Shown here: piece by piece, positions 15,464-47,066 of the stretch | Position numbering within the stretch: position 1 is the first letter of the stretch | Layout of the letters: every line of letters begins with the position of its first letter | Assembly (NCBI GenBank): GCA_964354805.1 | Contig: CAYHBD010000016.1 | Span: 32,001 to 96,000, forward strand | Origin: an uncultured archaeon | GTDB lineage: Archaea > Iainarchaeota > Iainarchaeia > Iainarchaeales > GCA-2688035 | Reading direction: 5' to 3' | Length of the DNA: 64,000 bases | Translations under genes and position numbers: made by a program | The notes under the pieces: model-generated | What the model was told of the DNA's origin: nothing | The model's input: the letters and a program-made list of their open reading frames with translations, nothing else | Databases searched by the model: none

Positions 15464-17074
15464 ATGGCTCCCACCCCCGACAGTTTTTGGTTAACGGATG
15501 TTAAATATTTGGAGGACAAAAGGGCGGTTCTGGCTGATTTCTCCAGGCTCAACATTAGGAGAAATTTATGCCTGCCCTTCGTTCCCTCTTTTTTTGCAAG
15601 CAAAAAACGCGTTAAAAAAGAGCAGCTGCTTTCCGCTCTATCTGCATTGGGAAAACAGCCCTTTGAATTAAACGAAGAAAAAAGCGCATTCAAAATAACC
15701 GCTGCCACTTTCGCTGATTTGAACAAAGCTGCAAACGCGCTTTTTCAGGAAATGAATTTTTCGCCGATTGTCCTGCAGCCGGAGCGGCAGTTTCTGCTGC
15801 AGCAAAACTGGAGCTATTTTGACTGCTTTCACTTTACTTCAGAAAAAGAACCGCAGAAAATTGAATGCAATGAATTGCCTGGCATAAATCTGCCTTTCTT
15901 CTCAGAGCCATTGAATGAAACAGTTCAGCAGCTTCTGGGCGTGGATGCGAACAGCGCAATGCGCATCCTTGAATCAATTGCATTAAGCAATGCGCTGCGT
16001 TTGCCTTTAACCAATTTATCGCCTCGCAATGACACGCATGCCGAGGCCCTGTTTGAGAATATTTTCTGGTTTAATGGAGAAAGCAGGCACTTGCCGTGCA
16101 AAAGGCTAGGCTCACCACCCGCATGGCATGTGCCTTCTTTTTCTAATGCAACGTTTTTCGATTTCAGCCAGTTGTGGCCGACGATTCTGACAAAGCCGTT
16201 CTATAACGTTTCCCTTGAAACAATTGACTGCCACTGCTGCAAGCCTTTTGCTGTTGCAAAAGCCTCCTTGCAAAACCAAGGGTTTTGCGAGGTCCCGCAA
16301 AAGCAAAGCTTTTGCAGGATGGGAAAAGCAGCCTTCGGCGAGCCAATTGGAATTGATGCCAGAAACATTCTGCCGAGCAGCACTGTTTCGGCTGAATTCC
16401 TGCAGGACGGCTTTTATTTTGACAGTTCGTTCCCTGAATTCGCCGCAAGGTTTCACGCAGAAAATGAGGGCAGGGAGAGGAGGGAGCGGAGAATGAGGGA
16501 ATTCTGCCTGCCGTTTCCCCCAATCGGGCCCTTTGACAGGGGCAGCATTGCTGCAATTCCGTTGAATGATGCAATTGCTTTAACCCAGAGAAACAAGGCA
16601 AGAATAATTTCGTTGAATGAAACGCACTGGTTTTGCCTAAAGCAGGAATCTGCTGTGGCAAAGCAAATCATCTTGTTGCAGGCAAAAATAGCATTGATTG
16701 AAAAGGAAGCCAATGCAACCGAGAGCGTTTTTTTGAAAGAGCACGGATTGAATGCAATCCAGCTGTTGAATAACGACTGCAATTTTCTTTTCAATAAAGC
16801 AAAGGCAAAGGTTTGCGCACAGCTTCTCTCCTCAATTGCACAGCATTTGCAGGATAGAAACAGCGCTTTCTTTGATGAAAACCTGGGCAATGCCGTTGCA
16901 GGCATTGCTGCCCTTATTTTAAGCGAATTCCAGCTATTCTCGCAGCAGCAGGGCAGCAGGGTTGTTCTGCTGCAGCAGGGAAACGCTCTTGTAAAAAGCG
17001 AAAAGCCACTGAGCTTAATTGAGCAGTTCAGCATGGTGCAGAAAATCCCTGCTTTGATCAGGCTGCGGAATTGA
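15464..17074 (+). CDS. Inactivated, truncated family-B DNA polymerase derivative
   Basis: Motif A remnant FDFSQLWPTIL..NVSLETIDCHCC; motif B degenerate; motif C YGDTDS position reads LLQQGN. Confidence 0.72.
   Translation: MAPTPDSFWLTDVKYLEDKRAVLADFSRLNIRRNLCLPFVPSFFASKKRVKKEQLLSALSALGKQPFELNEEKSAFKITAATFADLNKAANALFQEMNFSPIVLQPERQFLLQQNWSYFDCFHFTSEKEPQKIECNELPGINLPFFSEPLNETVQQLLGVDANSAMRILESIALSNALRLPLTNLSPRNDTHAEALFENIFWFNGESRHLPCKRLGSPPAWHVPSFSNATFFDFSQLWPTILTKPFYNVSLETIDCHCCKPFAVAKASLQNQGFCEVPQKQSFCRMGKAAFGEPIGIDARNILPSSTVSAEFLQDGFYFDSSFPEFAARFHAENEGRERRERRMREFCLPFPPIGPFDRGSIAAIPLNDAIALTQRNKARIISLNETHWFCLKQESAVAKQIILLQAKIALIEKEANATESVFLKEHGLNAIQLLNNDCNFLFNKAKAKVCAQLLSSIAQHLQDRNSAFFDENLGNAVAGIAALILSEFQLFSQQQGSRVVLLQQGNALVKSEKPLSLIEQFSMVQKIPALIRLRN
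16241..16344 (+). repeat. Family-1 repeat inserted in-frame in the PolB-like gene, with two extra nested hairpins
   Basis: AAGCCTTTTGCTGTTGCAAAAGCCT-[2 hairpins]-TGGGAAAAGCAGCCTTCGGC-GAGCC; 99-nt period. Confidence 0.85.
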
Positions 17075-30042: not shown

Positions 30043-30825
30043 TTGTTTAAAAAATTGCTGGCGTTGGCTATTCTGCTGCTGTTTTGCAATAGTGTTTTTG
30101 GTACTGTTTTTCTGGTTGAGCCAGTTGATGCAAAAGTGCAGAGCGGCGAAGAGATTGCTTTGGGCAAGGCAGCCAAGGGTGAAACTGTTCGCATTGTTCT
30201 AAAAAAGAAAAGCGAGCTTTCAGTTGAGTGGAACAGCATTGCTGTTGGGCAATTGCCTCAGGGCTGGAAAAGCAGCAGTGTTGAAACAGACAAGACCCTG
30301 ATTGCCCTTATTTCAATTCCTGCAAATGCTGTTGTGAGCACGCAGAGGATTCAGTTTGTTTTAAGCAACAAGAGCCAGCCTTTGTTTGCTGAAAGCTTTT
30401 TCGGCAACCTGAGTGTTCGGGATAACCTGCTCACTGTTACAATTGACAACCTCAACCAGCAGACTATCGTTGGAGAAAAGGTTCGCTTCAGGCTGATTGC
30501 AAACAATGATTCAATCGCTGAGCACACTGTTTCCATTGCAAGCGATTTGCCTTCTTATTGGCTGCAGCCTTTTTCAGTGAAATTGAATCCGTCTGCTGCG
30601 ACAGAAATTGATTTGAATGTCAACGCTGTTGCTTACGGTGAAAGAAGATTCAATCTGATTGTGAGCTCAACGCATAATGAAAAGAAATTTGTTTTCCCTG
30701 CTTCGCTCAGCGTAAACCCAACGCTGAAAGGAAAATACACCGCTGCCCTGTACGGCTTTCCCTTCTTTTCCCCTTCACTGATCAGCAATTACCTGGTAAA
30801 CGCCTTCCTTGCGCTGCTTTCGTGA
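30043..30825 (+). CDS. Secreted/surface beta-rich hypothetical protein
   Basis: Signal peptide, beta-strand-like periodicity, hydrophobic C-terminus. Confidence 0.7.
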   Translation: MFKKLLALAILLLFCNSVFGTVFLVEPVDAKVQSGEEIALGKAAKGETVRIVLKKKSELSVEWNSIAVGQLPQGWKSSSVETDKTLIALISIPANAVVSTQRIQFVLSNKSQPLFAESFFGNLSVRDNLLTVTIDNLNQQTIVGEKVRFRLIANNDSIAEHTVSIASDLPSYWLQPFSVKLNPSAATEIDLNVNAVAYGERRFNLIVSSTHNEKKFVFPASLSVNPTLKGKYTAALYGFPFFSPSLISNYLVNAFLALLS

Positions 30826-30911
30826 AGCCTTTCTTTAGAAAAGAAAGCCTTGGCACAATGTCAAGCAATGAAATAAAAAAGAATATTTTGATGCTTGACA
30901 TTGTGGGGAAA
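30825..30911 (+). repeat. Family-1 repeat with nested 52-bp inverted-repeat element
   Basis: AAGCC hairpin GCCTTGG-[CACAATGTCAAGCA...TGCTTGACATTGTG]-GGGAAA. Confidence 0.85.
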
Positions 30912-30952
30912 GAAATAATAAATTGGTATAAAAACATTGCAGCATATTCAAA

Positions 30953-32638
30953 TTGAAGTGGTTCCTGTTGGATACTTTGCGCGCATACTGCCTGGATTTG
31001 ATTCATTCAATTGAATCAGGGGAAATAAAAACAAGGCAGCAGCTTAATGAAAAAAAGATTGAATTGTGCAAAAAGCACAGCCTGCCCCAAATGCCAAAAA
31101 ACCCGGTAATTCTTTCCTTTGCAAAGCCTTTTTTCCTCACGGAAAAAAGCCTTGGGAAATTCGCTTCGCAAGAAAAAAGTGAAACTCTTTTGAGGCTGCT
31201 TTCAGTCAAGCCTACAAGGGGCCTGAGCGGGATTGCAATTGTTGCAGTAATGACAAAGCCGCACAAATGCCCTGGAAAATGCATTTACTGCCCAAGCTCG
31301 CTTCTCCCTGGTAAGCGCACGCCAAAAAGCTACACCGGAAGAGAGCCTGCAACAATGCGGGCAATAAGCGCAAACTTTGACCCAGACCAGCAAATCAAGG
31401 ACAGGCTGAGGCAGCTGCAGGAAGCAGGGCATCCTACAAACAAAATTGAATTAATTGTAATGGGCGGCACCTTCCTGAGCCAGCAGCTTTCTTTTCAAAA
31501 AAAATTCATGCTGAGTTGCCTGAATGCATTTAATGGGCAGAAAGCAAAAACAATTGCCGCTGCTGCAAAGGCTGCTGAAAGCGCTGCCAACAGAATCACG
31601 GGCATTACCTTTGAAACAAGGCCTGATTTTTGCGGAAAAAAAGAAATAAGCAACCTGCTTTCTTTTGGCGGCACAAGATGCGAGCTTGGAGTGCAAACAA
31701 TTTACGATAGCGTTTATAAAAAAATTAACAGAGGGCACACAATTGCGGATGTAATCAATGCAACCCAGCTGCTGAAAGACAGCGCTTTCAAAGTAACCTA
31801 CCATTACATGCCGGGCCTGCCTGGCGTGAGCTTCCGGGAAGACGAGCAGGCATTGCGAAAAATTTTTTCTTGCCCAGAATTCAAGCCCGATAGCCTGAAG
31901 ATTTACCCCTGCCTGGTGATTGAGGGCACTGAGCTGTTCAGGCAATGGCAGCGCGGTTCATATGACCCTTTTTCAACAGAGAAAGCGGTTAAGCTGCTTG
32001 CTGAAATGAAAAGCTTTGTTCCAAGGTGGATTAGAATAATGAGGGTGCAGCGCGATATTCCATCGCAGTTGATTGCTGCTGGCGTTCAAAAGAGCAATCT
32101 GCGCCAGCTTGTGCAAATGGAAGCAGCCGCTGCAGGAATTGAGTGCAATTGCATCAGGTGCAGGGAAGCCGGCTTAAGGGCGCGCTTTGAGGACGGCACT
32201 GATTTAAGCAGTGCAAAGCTTTTCGTTGAAAAATACAATGCAAGCAATGGGCAGGACTTTTTTATCTCTTTTGAGGATAAAGCAAGAAAATTTTTGTACG
32301 GCTTCCTGCGCTTGCGCCAGCCTTTTGCTGTTGCAAAAGCCTGGGGGAAAAATGCTTCGCAACAGCCTTTTGCTCCCTTCCGAAAAGAGATTGATGCCAG
32401 GACTGCTTTGGTCAGGGAGCTGCGGGTTTTTGGTGAACCACTGCCGTTGCATAAGCGCAGCGATGCAGCAATCCAGCACAAGGGAATTGGAAAAATGCTG
32501 CTGCGCAGAGCAGAAGAGATTGCGCAAAGCGAATTGGATGCGCGCAAGCTTTCGGTTTTAAGCGGTTTCGGGGTAAAGCAGTACTATTTTGATTTGGGTT
32601 TCAAGCGCGATGGCTGTTTTGTGGAAAAAAAGCTTTAA
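30953..32638 (+). CDS. elp3: Elp3 radical-SAM tRNA U34 acetyltransferase (two in-frame repeat insertions)
   Basis: CPGKCIYCP, TPKSYTG, MGGTF, ETRPD, ELGVQ, RVQRDIP, VRELRV, QHKGIG. Confidence 0.96.
   Translation: MKWFLLDTLRAYCLDLIHSIESGEIKTRQQLNEKKIELCKKHSLPQMPKNPVILSFAKPFFLTEKSLGKFASQEKSETLLRLLSVKPTRGLSGIAIVAVMTKPHKCPGKCIYCPSSLLPGKRTPKSYTGREPATMRAISANFDPDQQIKDRLRQLQEAGHPTNKIELIVMGGTFLSQQLSFQKKFMLSCLNAFNGQKAKTIAAAAKAAESAANRITGITFETRPDFCGKKEISNLLSFGGTRCELGVQTIYDSVYKKINRGHTIADVINATQLLKDSAFKVTYHYMPGLPGVSFREDEQALRKIFSCPEFKPDSLKIYPCLVIEGTELFRQWQRGSYDPFSTEKAVKLLAEMKSFVPRWIRIMRVQRDIPSQLIAAGVQKSNLRQLVQMEAAAAGIECNCIRCREAGLRARFEDGTDLSSAKLFVEKYNASNGQDFFISFEDKARKFLYGFLRLRQPFAVAKAWGKNASQQPFAPFRKEIDARTALVRELRVFGEPLPLHKRSDAAIQHKGIGKMLLRRAEEIAQSELDARKLSVLSGFGVKQYYFDLGFKRDGCFVEKKL
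31123..31172 (+). repeat. Family-1 repeat in-frame in elp3 (about 45 nt, PFFLTEKSLGKFASQ)
   Basis: AAAGCC-TTTTTTCC-TCAC-GGAAAAAA-GCC-TTGGGAAA...GCTTCGCAAG. Confidence 0.85.
32318..32374 (+). repeat. Family-1 repeat in-frame in elp3 (45 nt, bounded by a 12-bp direct repeat)
   Basis: CAGCCTTTTGCT-GTTGCAAAAGCCTGGGGGAAAAATGCTTCGCAA-CAGCCTTTTGCT. Confidence 0.9.
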
Positions 32639-32666: not shown

Positions 32667-32972
32667 ATGGATATTATAGCCGAATGGCAGTTGTTTTTGG
32701 AGGAGCACCCTGAGTTTTTTGAGTTATCAAAGAGCGATTTCTTCATTTCAATGCTGCAATCGCTTGTTAAGGGGGCAAAGTCGCCTGAATCAATTCATAA
32801 CGATTTCCCTTTTGTTGAGTGGAATGACTTGTATTTGATTCTGGAGGCTTTGGTTAAATCAGGGGTTGTGGAGCAAATTAGAATTGGCGAAAAGAATTTT
32901 TTCAAGACAACAGAAAAAGGCAAGCTGTTCCTTAAAATGTATAAAAAAACAAAGCGCTCTTTCAGCGTATAA
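32667..32972 (+). CDS. Winged-helix domain protein
   Basis: LEALVKSGVVE...FKTTEKGK wHTH pattern. Confidence 0.75.
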   Translation: MDIIAEWQLFLEEHPEFFELSKSDFFISMLQSLVKGAKSPESIHNDFPFVEWNDLYLILEALVKSGVVEQIRIGEKNFFKTTEKGKLFLKMYKKTKRSFSV

Positions 32973-33035
32973 GCCTTTTTTTGCTAACGCAAAAAAGCCT
33001 TGGGAAAAGGGCAATTGCTTCGCAATTGCAAAAGG
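32971..33035 (+). repeat. Family-1 repeat overlapping a stop codon
   Basis: AAGCCTTTTTTTGC-TAAC-GCAAAAAAGCCTTGGGAAAAGG-GCAATTGC-TTC-GCAATTGC. Confidence 0.88.
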
Positions 33036-33479: not shown

Positions 33480-33836
33480 ATGGACCTTATTTTTCTTGCA
33501 ATAGCAGTTGTCCTGATTGCCATCATTGTTTTTTTAATTAAGAAAATCTTTAAGCTGAGAGACCGGATTGATTCCCTGCGCTTTGACAAAAGCAGCCAGG
33601 CAGTAAAATACGGCAAAATGACAGAGCAGTTTATTCCGTTCACCGAGCAATTTCCTTTCCCTGCAGAGCGCTTTCGTTTCATTGGCAGCCCGATTGATGG
33701 CATTGCCTTTGACGAGGATGAAATAATTTTCTGCGAATTCAAAACAGCAGGGAGCACCCTGAGCGAAAAGCAGCGCAAAATAAAGGAATTGGTGGAAAGA
33801 AAAAAAGTGAAGTGGAAAGAATTCAATCTGCGCTAA
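33480..33836 (+). CDS. Membrane-anchored Holliday-junction-resolvase-like PD-(D/E)xK endonuclease
   Basis: N-terminal TM; GKMTEQ, RFIGSPIDGIAF, EFKT. Confidence 0.88.
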   Translation: MDLIFLAIAVVLIAIIVFLIKKIFKLRDRIDSLRFDKSSQAVKYGKMTEQFIPFTEQFPFPAERFRFIGSPIDGIAFDEDEIIFCEFKTAGSTLSEKQRKIKELVERKKVKWKEFNLR

Positions 33837-33926
33837 GCCTTTTTGCTCACGCAAAAATCCTTGGGAAAGACTGCCTAACGGCAAAGCCTTTTGCTTTGCA
33901 AAAGCCTTGGGACAACAGCCTTCGGC
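33835..33926 (+). repeat. Two tandem family-1 units between convergent genes
   Basis: Units start AAGCC at 33835 and 33884; second hairpins TGCC-TAAC-GGCA and GCC-TTC-GGC. Confidence 0.88.
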
Positions 33927-46147: not shown

Positions 46148-46513
46148 TTAGCAGGGGATTAGTGATTCATTTAGATAAATGTTAATTGTTTCAAAATTTG
46201 TTTTATCCATAATAAGATCTTTAATTGTTCCTTCACCACTCCCGGTTAAACCTAATTCACTACATGTTAGTGTATCAGGCTCAGCAGACAAATTAAAATC
46301 AATTGTTAAGCCGCTCACTGCTGGCTTTACTTCGTCAATGTACACAAAGTAATCCAGTTTGCCTGCGTTTTCCACTACCTTAACTTTCAGCAATTCCATT
46401 GCTGTTACTGAATCATTTATGTTTGTGTAATAGCTTGCAATGGCAATGCTTCCTGCTAAAACAATCAATGCGATTATAAGCAATTCAATGCTAGTCTGCG
46501 CTCTGTCATTCAA
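46148..46513 (-). CDS. Pilin-like protein (class III signal peptide)
   Basis: DRA/QTSIELL plus hydrophobic helix. Confidence 0.85.
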   Translation of the reverse strand: MNDRAQTSIELLIIALIVLAGSIAIASYYTNINDSVTAMELLKVKVVENAGKLDYFVYIDEVKPAVSGLTIDFNLSAEPDTLTCSELGLTGSGEGTIKDLIMDKTNFETINIYLNESLIPC

Positions 46514-47066
46514 CCTTGATCACTCCAGCGCTATCTCTTGTTATAGCGTATGCCTTAAATGGTGGGAGTGGGCCTTGGATTTTCAGGCTGGCACAATTGC
46601 TCGGCACGGCGGTTTGCAGCAATGCAATTGAAGCGCTGCACTCAAAGTAAGGGGGTGATCCTATTTCCTCGCACCCCCGGGGTTTCGGTCTTTTTTCATT
46701 CATTTTGTTTACATCCACAGTAAAATTAATCTGGTTTCCACTGCATGAAATGCTTGCCTTGTTTGGAACAAGCAGGTGAATTGTTTTCTTGCTCTCGCCG
46801 CTGTTTGCAGCTGCTTCGTTTAAAGCGTTCGCCAATTTTTGGGCAGAAATTTTTGTATCGCTTACTCTTTGTACATCCTCTGCTGCAACTGTTGCGTCAT
46901 TTATCAGCGGCCAGACTGTTCCGTAAATGTAAACAAGCGTGATAACAATCAGCAGAATAAATTCAATGCTGACCTGGCCTTTTTGCCTTTTGGCAAAAAC
47001 CCCAGGGAAAAATGGCAATTGCTTCGCAATTGCTTGCCCTCTTTTGTTCAATGCAAGAAAACCCAA
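46506..47066 (-). CDS. Pilin-like protein with a repeat insertion duplicating its class III cleavage motif
   Basis: NKRGQ-[AIAKQLPFFPGVFAKRQKGQ]-VSIEF; alternative TTG start at 47051. Confidence 0.85.
   Translation of the reverse strand: MGFLALNKRGQAIAKQLPFFPGVFAKRQKGQVSIEFILLIVITLVYIYGTVWPLINDATVAAEDVQRVSDTKISAQKLANALNEAAANSGESKKTIHLLVPNKASISCSGNQINFTVDVNKMNEKRPKPRGCEEIGSPPYFECSASIALLQTAVPSNCASLKIQGPLPPFKAYAITRDSAGVIKVE
46975..47040 (+). repeat. Family-1 repeat, antisense and in-frame (60 nt) within the pilin gene
   Basis: GGCC-TTTTTGCC-TTTT-GGCAAAAA-CCCCAGGGAAAAAT-GGCAATTGC-TTC-GCAATTGC. Confidence 0.85.

What the first reader, a model, noticed from the sequence alone, without database searches (positions are those of the whole stretch)
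31123..32374. Two in-frame repeat insertions inside elp3: repeats writing new peptide into a conserved enzyme
Seen: 32318-32374 is a 45-nt unit bounded by the 12-bp direct repeat CAGCCTTTTGCT, turning LRLR-QPFA-PFRKEI into LRLR-QPFA-VAKAWGKNASQ-QPFA-PFRKEI. A second copy of about 45 nt adds PFFLTEKSLGKFASQ near the N-terminus. All four coding-region copies in the window are multiples of 3 (45, 45, 60, 99 nt), whereas one intergenic period is 49 nt. Established: Rickettsia palindromic elements insert in-frame into proteins. Inference: an analogous phenomenon in a DPANN archaeon, filtered by selection for frame and surface loops, or removed at the RNA level.
Basis: partly seen in the sequence, partly recalled or inferred. 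Interest (0 to 1): 0.8.

Follow-up and report, generated by a model that had tools for sequence, protein, structure and literature searches.

The report
Hairpin repeats inserted in-frame in Elp3
Two 45-base copies of a small hairpin-forming repeat that litters the genome of this tiny DPANN (Iainarchaeum-like) archaeon sit in frame inside the conserved tRNA-modifying enzyme Elp3, each adding a floppy 15-residue loop that relatives lack, so this is an archaeal counterpart of the Rickettsia palindromic elements.

Summary
Window 30953-32638 (+) encodes a complete Elp3 of 561 aa; orthologues are typically about 527 aa. Two 45-nt segments, 31127-31171 and 32318-32362, belong to a dispersed hairpin repeat family with about 120 copies in this 1.38-Mb genome.

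In alignments each segment is an exact 15-residue gap in about 80 database homologues, in 24 family-level relatives and in solved M. infernus Elp3. Only three or four very close relatives share them, with 0, 1 or 2 units per site, so the inserts are recent, still changing and not assembly artefacts.

Both lie in low-confidence coil of an otherwise confident AlphaFold model. One is in the N-terminal tRNA-binding extension. The other is in the beta3-beta4 loop of the acetyltransferase domain.

No tRNA-type (BHB) splice motif could remove them. Every insert state seen in genes is a multiple of three and free of stops, whereas only 1 of 11 periods in spacer arrays is a multiple of three. Translation as tolerated loops is therefore the best reading.

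I also confirmed in-frame inserts in a dihydrouridine synthase (+54 nt) and a DHH phosphoesterase (+90 nt). No mobilising enzyme could be linked to the repeat.

Earlier follow-ups of this scan already described the family elsewhere in this genome (IleRS, a PolB-like gene, pilin leaders, tRNA introns). I found no published description.

The parts
30953..32638 (+). Elp3 gene (561 aa; ELP3_N, radical SAM and Radical_SAM_C domains, then the KAT domain)
   Evidence: ORF. Pfam hits. 43% identity to solved M. infernus Elp3 with E about 1e-148. It keeps every column that is invariant in an 83-sequence alignment.
31127..31171 (+). Insert 1: one 45-nt repeat unit read in frame as PFFLTEKSLGKFASQ (aa 59-73)
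   Evidence: nhmmer hit 31124-31175, E 9.4e-11. 15-aa gap in all homologues except P0001, which has two units here. pLDDT below 50 for aa 60-72. 9-bp hairpin, -14.8 kcal/mol, z -2.5.
32318..32362 (+). Insert 2: one 45-nt repeat unit read in frame as QPFAVAKAWGKNASQ (aa 456-470)
   Evidence: nhmmer hit 32319-32361, E 1e-6. 27 nt are 96% identical to the copy at 16239 (D9). 15-aa gap against MinElp3 6iaz/6ia8 and all but three close relatives. L032 and P0003 carry two units here. Mean pLDDT 51 for aa 461-470.
32363..32374 (+). Native QPFA codons (CAGCCTTTTGCT), which mimic the 5' end of the repeat unit and form the 12-nt direct repeat
   Evidence: Homologues without the insert still encode QPFA or xPFx here. 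Empty sites in relatives read CAG CCT TAT or AAG CCT TTT.
30826..30915 (+). Repeat unit that starts directly after the stop codon of the upstream gene, with a 52-nt mini-element (13-bp terminal inverted repeats, 30854-30905) nested in its core, just upstream of Elp3
   Evidence: nhmmer hit 30825-30861; sequence and 10 to 11 genomic copies of the nested element.
32971..33029 (+). Spacer repeat unit that abuts the stop codon of the next gene. It is a single unit here and 4 to 5 units in the close relative L032.
   Evidence: nhmmer E 2e-11; pairwise alignment with L032; TAA|GCC junction.
33835..33925 (+). Two tandem spacer units in the same orientation
   Evidence: nhmmer hits 33835-33880 and 33883-33925; core-to-core spacing 46 nt.

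Best explanation
Two units of a non-coding, structure-forming DNA repeat were copied into the Elp3 gene of a recent ancestor. The unit is a T-run/A-run hairpin with a variable inner stem, the core AAAGCCTTGGGAAA, a purine tail that mirrors the stem, and a small second hairpin. Both landing sites natively resemble the repeat's own AAAGCC junction: GCAAAG at site 1 and CAGCCTTTTGC at site 2. The copies persist because they are 45 nt long, free of stops, and sit in tolerant places. Site 1 is in the flexible, basic N-terminal tRNA-binding extension. Site 2 is in the beta3-beta4 loop of the acetyltransferase (KAT) domain. They are transcribed and translated as disordered 15-residue loops; the enzyme stays functional. 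Unit number at both sites keeps changing (0, 1 or 2) among close relatives, probably by unit-wise gain and loss at the repeated AAGCC junctions. What is shown: family membership, absence from orthologues, copy-number polymorphism, location in low-confidence coil, lack of a splice motif, and genome-wide depletion from genes. What is inferred: translation, neutrality, and a spread mechanism that needs no transposase and uses microhomology or structure.
For: Family and non-chance: (48 matches against 0 for the reversed control). Gaps in orthologues. Independent assemblies with (site 1, site 2) states window 1,1; P0001 2,1; P0003/L032 0,2; P0002 0,0. Model pLDDT 89.4 overall but below 50 at aa 60-72 and 469-472. 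Site 1 lies upstream of the KP(V/T)R motif where MinElp3 density begins (V72; PMC6367351). No BHB in register. Other validated in-frame inserts: Dus +54 nt and DHH +90 nt. Census of 120 hits: 13 lie inside genes although 86% of the genome is coding. Spacer array periods are 3n in 1 of 11, against all six insert states at four gene sites. Unit spans are stop-free in 68-82% of copies for each of the six frames. Junction microhomology at all four validated sites, and 8 copies abutting a stop codon as TAA|GCC or TGA|GCC.
Against: There is no transcript or peptide evidence, so translation is inferred. The 3n argument is partly circular, because out-of-frame copies would break the ORF and be scored as spacer copies; I found none that demonstrably do so, but five candidate gene pairs could not be annotated. 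The T6 run of insert 1 in the sense strand could act as an archaeal termination signal. The implied exact loss of insert 1 in the P0003 lineage rests on a few percent of sequence difference and could instead reflect recombination. The microhomology pattern was noticed after the fact on four sites.
Confidence: 0.75

Rival explanations
1. The inserts are removed before or during decoding, either by archaeal bulge-helix-bulge splicing of the mRNA or by ribosomal bypassing between the matching flanking codons. The mature protein would then be the ordinary 531-aa enzyme.
For: Each insert starts with a stable hairpin, and insert 2 is bounded by identical 12-nt repeats. Earlier notes of this scan report the same repeat inside tRNA introns.
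Against: A scan for helix, 3-nt bulge, 4-bp helix, 3-nt bulge, helix found nothing at insert 2. At insert 1 it found only weak candidates of 40, 42, 26, 69 and 64 nt, none matching the 45-nt boundaries. All six insert states at four gene sites are 3n and stop-free, which removal would make unnecessary. At most 1 of 47 same-strand gene pairs separated by a repeat looks like a gene split by an out-of-frame copy.
Confidence: 0.07
2. The inserts have been co-opted. The extra Lys/Gly-rich loops improve or tune tRNA binding (site 1 lies in the basic N-terminal tRNA-binding region) or acetyl-CoA gating (site 2 lies 21 residues before the blocking loop).
For: The N-terminus of archaeal Elp3 binds tRNA and is basic (PMC6367351). 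The two nucleotide differences between the window unit and the L032 unit at site 2 are both synonymous.
Against: Closely related genomes do without either insert (P0002), or carry 2 units or 0 units. The same peptide frames appear in unrelated enzymes. Two substitutions are too few to show selection.
Confidence: 0.1
3. The repeat is a non-autonomous element moved in trans by a Y1 (HUH) single-strand transposase, like IS200/IS605-derived PATEs or the REP/RAYT pair. It would insert next to a short target (AAG or CAG) that the unit's own end recreates, which would explain same-orientation arrays.
For: The genome encodes two Y1_Tnp proteins (C35:614-967 and C13:1382-1729; 103 and 100 bits). The elements are hairpins. 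Junctions follow (A/C)AG at three sense-strand sites and at stop codons.
Against: The hairpins that flank the two Y1 genes are unrelated to the repeat, and no repeat copy flanks them. Across 30 relatives, repeat counts and Y1 counts do not track each other: G001 22 repeats and 0 Y1; G019 0 and 5; G004 2 and 7; G016 90 and 1 weak match. No TnpB was found. The DHH site lacks the 5' AAG.
Confidence: 0.15
4. The inserts are an assembly or binning artefact: repeat-induced misjoins inside the Elp3 contig.
For: Short repeats can confuse assemblers.
Against: The same inserts, with small sequence differences and different unit numbers, occur in independently assembled records from JGI, ENA and a separate JGI metagenome contig (P0001, P0003, L032). 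The frame is preserved in every one.
Confidence: 0.01

Closest known systems
Rickettsia palindromic elements (RPEs; Ogata et al. 2000/2002, as summarised in PMC10969869)
   Same: A dispersed palindromic repeat family that is repeatedly found in frame inside unrelated housekeeping genes. It adds a short peptide in positions compatible with the fold, while most copies lie between genes.
   Different: Archaeal (Iainarchaeota) rather than alphaproteobacterial. Units of 45-60 nt (15-18 aa) against about 100-150 bp. Modular hairpin with a variable stem and a conserved core. Forms same-orientation tandem and nested arrays. Unit number at one site is polymorphic among close relatives. Sequence similarity to RPEs was not tested.
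REP/BIME elements with RAYT transposases, and IS200/IS605-derived PATEs
   Same: Short imperfect palindromes, mostly extragenic, often clustered. The genome encodes Y1 HUH transposase homologues.
   Different: Arrays are in direct, not alternating, orientation. The Y1 genes are not flanked by the repeat and do not co-vary with it across relatives.
Intrastrand triplex repeats of bacteria (TM-ECO/BoxC type; Holder et al. 2015, PMC4666352)
   Same: A hairpin followed by a tail that mirrors the purine arm. Loci with the repeat differ between close relatives.
   Different: A/T-rich here rather than the G/C-rich motif studied there. Triplex formation is untested. Insertion in coding regions is prominent here.
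Classical prokaryotic MITEs (PMC10969869)
   Same: Small, non-coding, multicopy, and occasionally fused in frame to ORFs.
   Different: No terminal inverted repeats bound the whole unit. No clear target-site duplication. No parent IS with matching ends was found.

Membership tests
Elp3 (tRNA U34 cm5 radical SAM/KAT enzyme) | Radical SAM domain with a CxxxCxxC cluster motif plus a C-terminal GNAT/KAT domain with a QHxGxG motif | tested here: met
   Pfam ELP3_N, Radical_SAM and Radical_SAM_C. C106/C110/C113 and Q508/H509/G513 are invariant columns. Foldseek best matches are Elp3 structures, E down to 4.5e-51.
Rickettsia palindromic elements (RPE) | Dispersed palindromic repeat inserted in frame in several unrelated protein genes | tested here: met
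   Elp3 (two sites), Dus and DHH validated by orthologue gaps. 13 hits lie inside genes.
Rickettsia palindromic elements (RPE) | Element of about 100-150 bp that encodes a conserved peptide; sequence families specific to Rickettsia | tested here: not met
   Units are 45-60 nt. The host is an Iainarchaeota archaeon. Direct sequence comparison with RPEs was not done.
Rickettsia palindromic elements (RPE) | Insert retained in the mRNA and the protein | not testable with these tools
   Indirect only: 3n length, stop-free frame, no BHB motif.
MITE | Terminal inverted repeats, target-site duplication, and a related autonomous IS | tested here: not met
   The hairpin is internal; the tail and second hairpin lie outside it. 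Flanking repeats are explained by native sequence. The IS200-like genes have unrelated ends.
REP/RAYT | A RAYT (Y1 transposase) gene flanked by the REPs it mobilises; REP clusters in alternating orientation | tested here: not met
   No repeat hit lies near either Y1 gene. There is no co-variation across 30 relatives. Arrays are in direct orientation.
Intrastrand triplex repeat (Holder et al. 2015) | Third segment mirror-symmetric to the purine arm of the hairpin | tested here: met
   Mean mirror match 5.72 of 8, against 5.30 +/- 0.076 in 1000 permutations, none reaching the observed value. In copies with a 5A-G-3A arm the tail reads 3A-G-5A. Actual triplex formation cannot be tested here.
Archaeal BHB intron in a protein gene (cbf5 type) | Bulge-helix-bulge motif whose two cleavage sites bound the insert exactly | tested here: not met
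   0 candidates at insert 2, and none of 45 nt at insert 1.

The most novel reading that the evidence does not exclude
The repeat is a self-propagating DNA module with no dedicated transposase. Its hairpin/triplex structure and its own AAGCC junction would direct new copies next to, or into, existing copies and look-alike native sequences. That would build arrays, nested stacks and, per earlier notes of this scan, tRNA introns. It would also write and erase 15-residue loops in essential proteins such as Elp3 within species-level time. This would be a new class of prokaryotic mobile repeat and a concrete engine of protein insertion and deletion in DPANN archaea.
Probability: 0.2. Interest if true: 0.8.

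Novelty: new variant of a known kind. Interest (0 to 1): 0.58.

Why it matters
The finding shows that the insertion of palindromic repeats into proteins, known mainly from Rickettsia, also operates in archaea with reduced genomes. It does so with a much smaller unit and with visible turnover (0, 1 or 2 units at the same codon) among near-identical populations.

Elp3 is a good test case for two reasons. It has solved structures and a quantitative assay (tRNA-induced acetyl-CoA hydrolysis). One insert lies in the tRNA-binding N-terminus and the other lies next to the acetyl-CoA gating region.

The inserts also matter for annotation and phylogenomics of DPANN genomes. Such inserts create lineage-specific gaps that could be mistaken for informative indels.

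Tried and rejected
- **DNA of P0001, P0002 and P0003.** A metagenome scan recovered only L032, which matches P0003.
- **BHB splice motif.** None is in register with either insert.
- **Y1 transposase link.** Two genes are present. Their flanks are unrelated to the repeat and their distribution across relatives does not track it. No TnpB domain was found.
- **Virus-borne spread.** The pattern gave 0 matches in 2.9 million viral contigs.
- **Known RNA family.** Rfam matched only one tRNA in the window.
- **Genes split by out-of-frame copies.** 1 of 47 spacer cases has a downstream frame open back to the upstream gene. Among abutting gene pairs, one has a complete NMD3 domain downstream of the repeat and the other four were uninformative.
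- **Independent Elp3 insertions in other genera.** None in 24 family-level relatives, including G016 with 90 repeat copies.
- **Literature.** Searches for a description of such repeats in Iainarchaeota/Diapherotrites found nothing relevant.

Full report
**The gene and the two inserts**

Window 30953-32638 (+) is a 561-aa ORF with ELP3_N, Radical_SAM and Radical_SAM_C domains. It matches solved Elp3 structures strongly: M. infernus 6iaz/6ia8/6iad at E about 1e-148, and Foldseek best matches are Elp3 chains. The window is contig C16:32001-96000 of a 1.38-Mb, 49-contig genome with 44% G+C.

Insert 1 is nt 31127-31171, aa 59-73, PFFLTEKSLGKFASQ. Insert 2 is nt 32318-32362, aa 456-470, QPFAVAKAWGKNASQ. 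Insert 2 is followed by a second CAGCCTTTTGCT at 32363-32374.

**The repeat family**

A core search, a structured pattern and an nhmmer profile built from 110 copies find 110-120 copies in the genome on both strands. The two Elp3 copies score E = 9.4e-11 and 1e-6.

The unit has four parts:
- (A)AGCC, a run of 4-7 T, a variable inner stem, a 3-5 nt loop, the complementary inner stem and a run of 4-7 A;
- the core GCCTTGGGAAA;
- a purine tail;
- usually a second small hairpin, for example GCAATTGCTTCGCAATTGC or TGCCTTCGGCA.

Of 113 units, 105 have perfect stems of mostly 6-9 bp, with at least 25 different inner-arm sequences. The hairpin is therefore conserved and its sequence is not.

The tail mirrors the 3' arm. 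The mean match is 5.72 of 8 positions against 5.30 +/- 0.076 in permutations, and 0 of 1000 permutations reach the observed value.

Units occur singly, in same-orientation tandem arrays, and nested in each other's loops. Rfam has no matching family.

**Taxonomic spread**

The exact pattern occurs 48 times in this genome and its reversed control 0 times. It occurs 0-90 times in 12 of 18 genomes of the same family and in 1 of 12 genomes of other families of the order.

Across 185,579 species genomes the hits are almost all Iainarchaeum-labelled MAGs or unnamed archaeal MAGs. A few are MAGs labelled Aenigmatarchaeota or Micrarchaeota, and there are isolated single bacterial hits. There were no hits in viral contigs.

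The core is thus conserved across genera whose Elp3 proteins are only 58-73% identical.

**Orthologue comparison**

In alignments of 19 and 83 Elp3 sequences, and of 24 relatives taken from genomes and metagenomes, both inserts are clean 15-column gaps. HMMER leaves a 15-residue gap at site 2 against MinElp3.

Only the closest relatives carry units. The states as (site 1, site 2) are:

| Sequence | Site 1 units | Site 2 units | Note |
|---|---|---|---|
| Window | 1 | 1 | |
| P0001 | 2 | 1 | 31 aa at site 1 |
| P0003 and contig L032 | 0 | 2 | |
| P0002 | 0 | 0 | |

With the inserts masked, the identities are P0001-P0003 93.4%, window-P0001 91.4%, window-P0003 90.1%, and P0002 about 87% to all three. 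Site 2 was therefore gained after P0002 split off. Site 1 was then either lost exactly in the P0003 lineage or exchanged by recombination; this step is inference.

At the DNA level L032 is about 90% identical to the window. It has two 45-nt units at site 2. In the spacer array after the next gene it has 4-5 units where the window has one, and all junctions fall at AAGCC. Four independent assemblies carry the inserts, which rules out an artefact.

**Structure**

The AlphaFold model built on the 83-sequence alignment has mean pLDDT 89.4 and pTM 0.85. The only segments below 50 are aa 60-72 and 469-472, and the block aa 461-470 averages 51. Both inserts are coil.

Site 1 lies between helix 50-55 and helix 77-83. 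That is 13 residues before K86-P87-T88, the counterpart of the KPV motif where MinElp3 density begins (V72). The MinElp3 N-terminus (aa 1-75) is flexible, basic and needed for tRNA binding (PMC6367351).

Site 2 lies between strands 448-456 and 484-492 of the KAT domain. This corresponds to MinElp3 residues 444/445, 21 residues before the acetyl-CoA blocking loop (466-486). I derived this numbering.

**Translated or removed?**

A scan for canonical bulge-helix-bulge geometry found nothing at site 2. At site 1 it found only weak candidates of the wrong length.

Unit spans are stop-free in 68-82% of copies in each of the six frames. My own estimate from base composition is about 40% for random sequence. 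Length is therefore the main filter.

Core-to-core array periods are 46, 46, 50, 50, 53, 58, 59, 60, 61, 61 and 74 nt, so 1 of 11 is 3n. Two of these arrays lie in the first 150 nt of called ORFs, where the true start is ambiguous. Every insert state in a gene is 3n: Elp3 +45, +93, +45 and +90; Dus +54; DHH +90.

Only 13 of 120 hits lie well inside genes although 86% of the genome is coding. I found no gene demonstrably split by an out-of-frame copy. Five candidate gene pairs remain unannotatable, and the 3n argument is partly circular.

**Other genes**

Copies inside genes also occur in the following:
- a dihydrouridine synthase;
- a class I tRNA synthetase;
- a DHH/DHHA1 phosphoesterase (antisense, nested pair);
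- CoaE;
- a Fic protein;
- a U32 peptidase;
- two proteins without an informative Pfam match (L022 and L026).

Orthologue alignments confirm +18 aa in Dus and +30 aa in DHH, absent from all relatives compared: 10 for Dus (one does not reach the site) and 11 for DHH.

Five of the eight sense-strand copies are read in the same frame across the core, as CTT GGG AAA (the LGK motif).

**How it spreads**

All four validated sites have native sequence resembling the unit junction AAAGCC:
- Elp3 site 1: GCAAAG;
- Elp3 site 2: CAGCCTTTTGC;
- Dus: AAAAAGCCT;
- DHH: AAAGCA on the element strand.

Eight copies directly abut a stop codon as TAA|GCC or TGA|GCC.

The genome has two IS200-like Y1 transposase genes and no TnpB. 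Their flanking hairpins are unrelated to the repeat, and their presence across relatives does not follow repeat abundance.

I therefore favour unit-wise copying and loss at the repeated junction by microhomology or structure-induced template switching. My confidence in this is only moderate. Transposase-mediated movement stays a live rival.

**Comparison and novelty**

The behaviour matches Rickettsia palindromic elements as summarised in PMC10969869. That review lists archaeal MITEs, and the passages I read tie in-frame colonisation of genes to bacterial elements. The element here differs from RPEs in host domain, size, architecture and turnover.

Literature searches found no description for Iainarchaeota.

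Earlier follow-ups of this scan have reported the same family in other windows of this genome: IleRS, a PolB-like gene at 16241-16344 of this window, pilin leaders, a signal peptide and tRNA introns. The Elp3 case adds two things: two sites in one enzyme with solved homologues, and a 0/1/2-unit polymorphism at each site.

Noticed in passing
window 30854-30905 (also 61048-61100; G000 C8, C9, C10, C16, C30): A second mini-element of about 52 nt with 13-bp terminal inverted repeats (CACAATGCCAAGC ... GCTTGGCATTGTG) has 10 to 11 copies. In 7 loci it is inserted inside the core of the hairpin repeat, between GCCTTGG and GGGAAA; two of the other copies are tandem second copies of the same mini-element. 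One copy sits just upstream of the Elp3 start.
   Followed up: partly
G000 C35:614-967 (-) and C13:1382-1729 (+): Two IS200/IS605-type Y1 transposase genes (103 and 100 bits) with their own G+C-rich flanking hairpins.
   Followed up: partly
window 30823-30828, 32970-32975, 33833-33838 and 9 other gene ends in G000: Eight repeat copies start directly at the stop codon of the upstream gene (TAA|GCC or TGA|GCC); four more start within 6 nt of it. This suggests either a target preference for (T)AAG or a role right after gene ends.
   Followed up: partly
protein P0105 (Elp3 homologue of another lineage), alignment A1 columns about 256-290: An unrelated 34-residue insertion in the radical SAM domain, between the conserved FMLxCxNA and RIxGITFETRPD segments. 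It may be another repeat-derived insert in a different organism.
   Followed up: no
window 46977-47019 (gene 46506-47066, minus strand): An antisense repeat copy lies in the leader of a pilin-like protein, between duplicated (R/Q)KGQ motifs and ahead of the hydrophobic segment VSIEFILLIV.
   Followed up: no
G000 C44:6448-6521 (DHH gene) and C42, C30, C47 arrays: Nested copies: a complete unit inserted in the loop of another unit's hairpin. In the DHH gene the nested pair totals 90 nt, so the frame is kept.
   Followed up: partly
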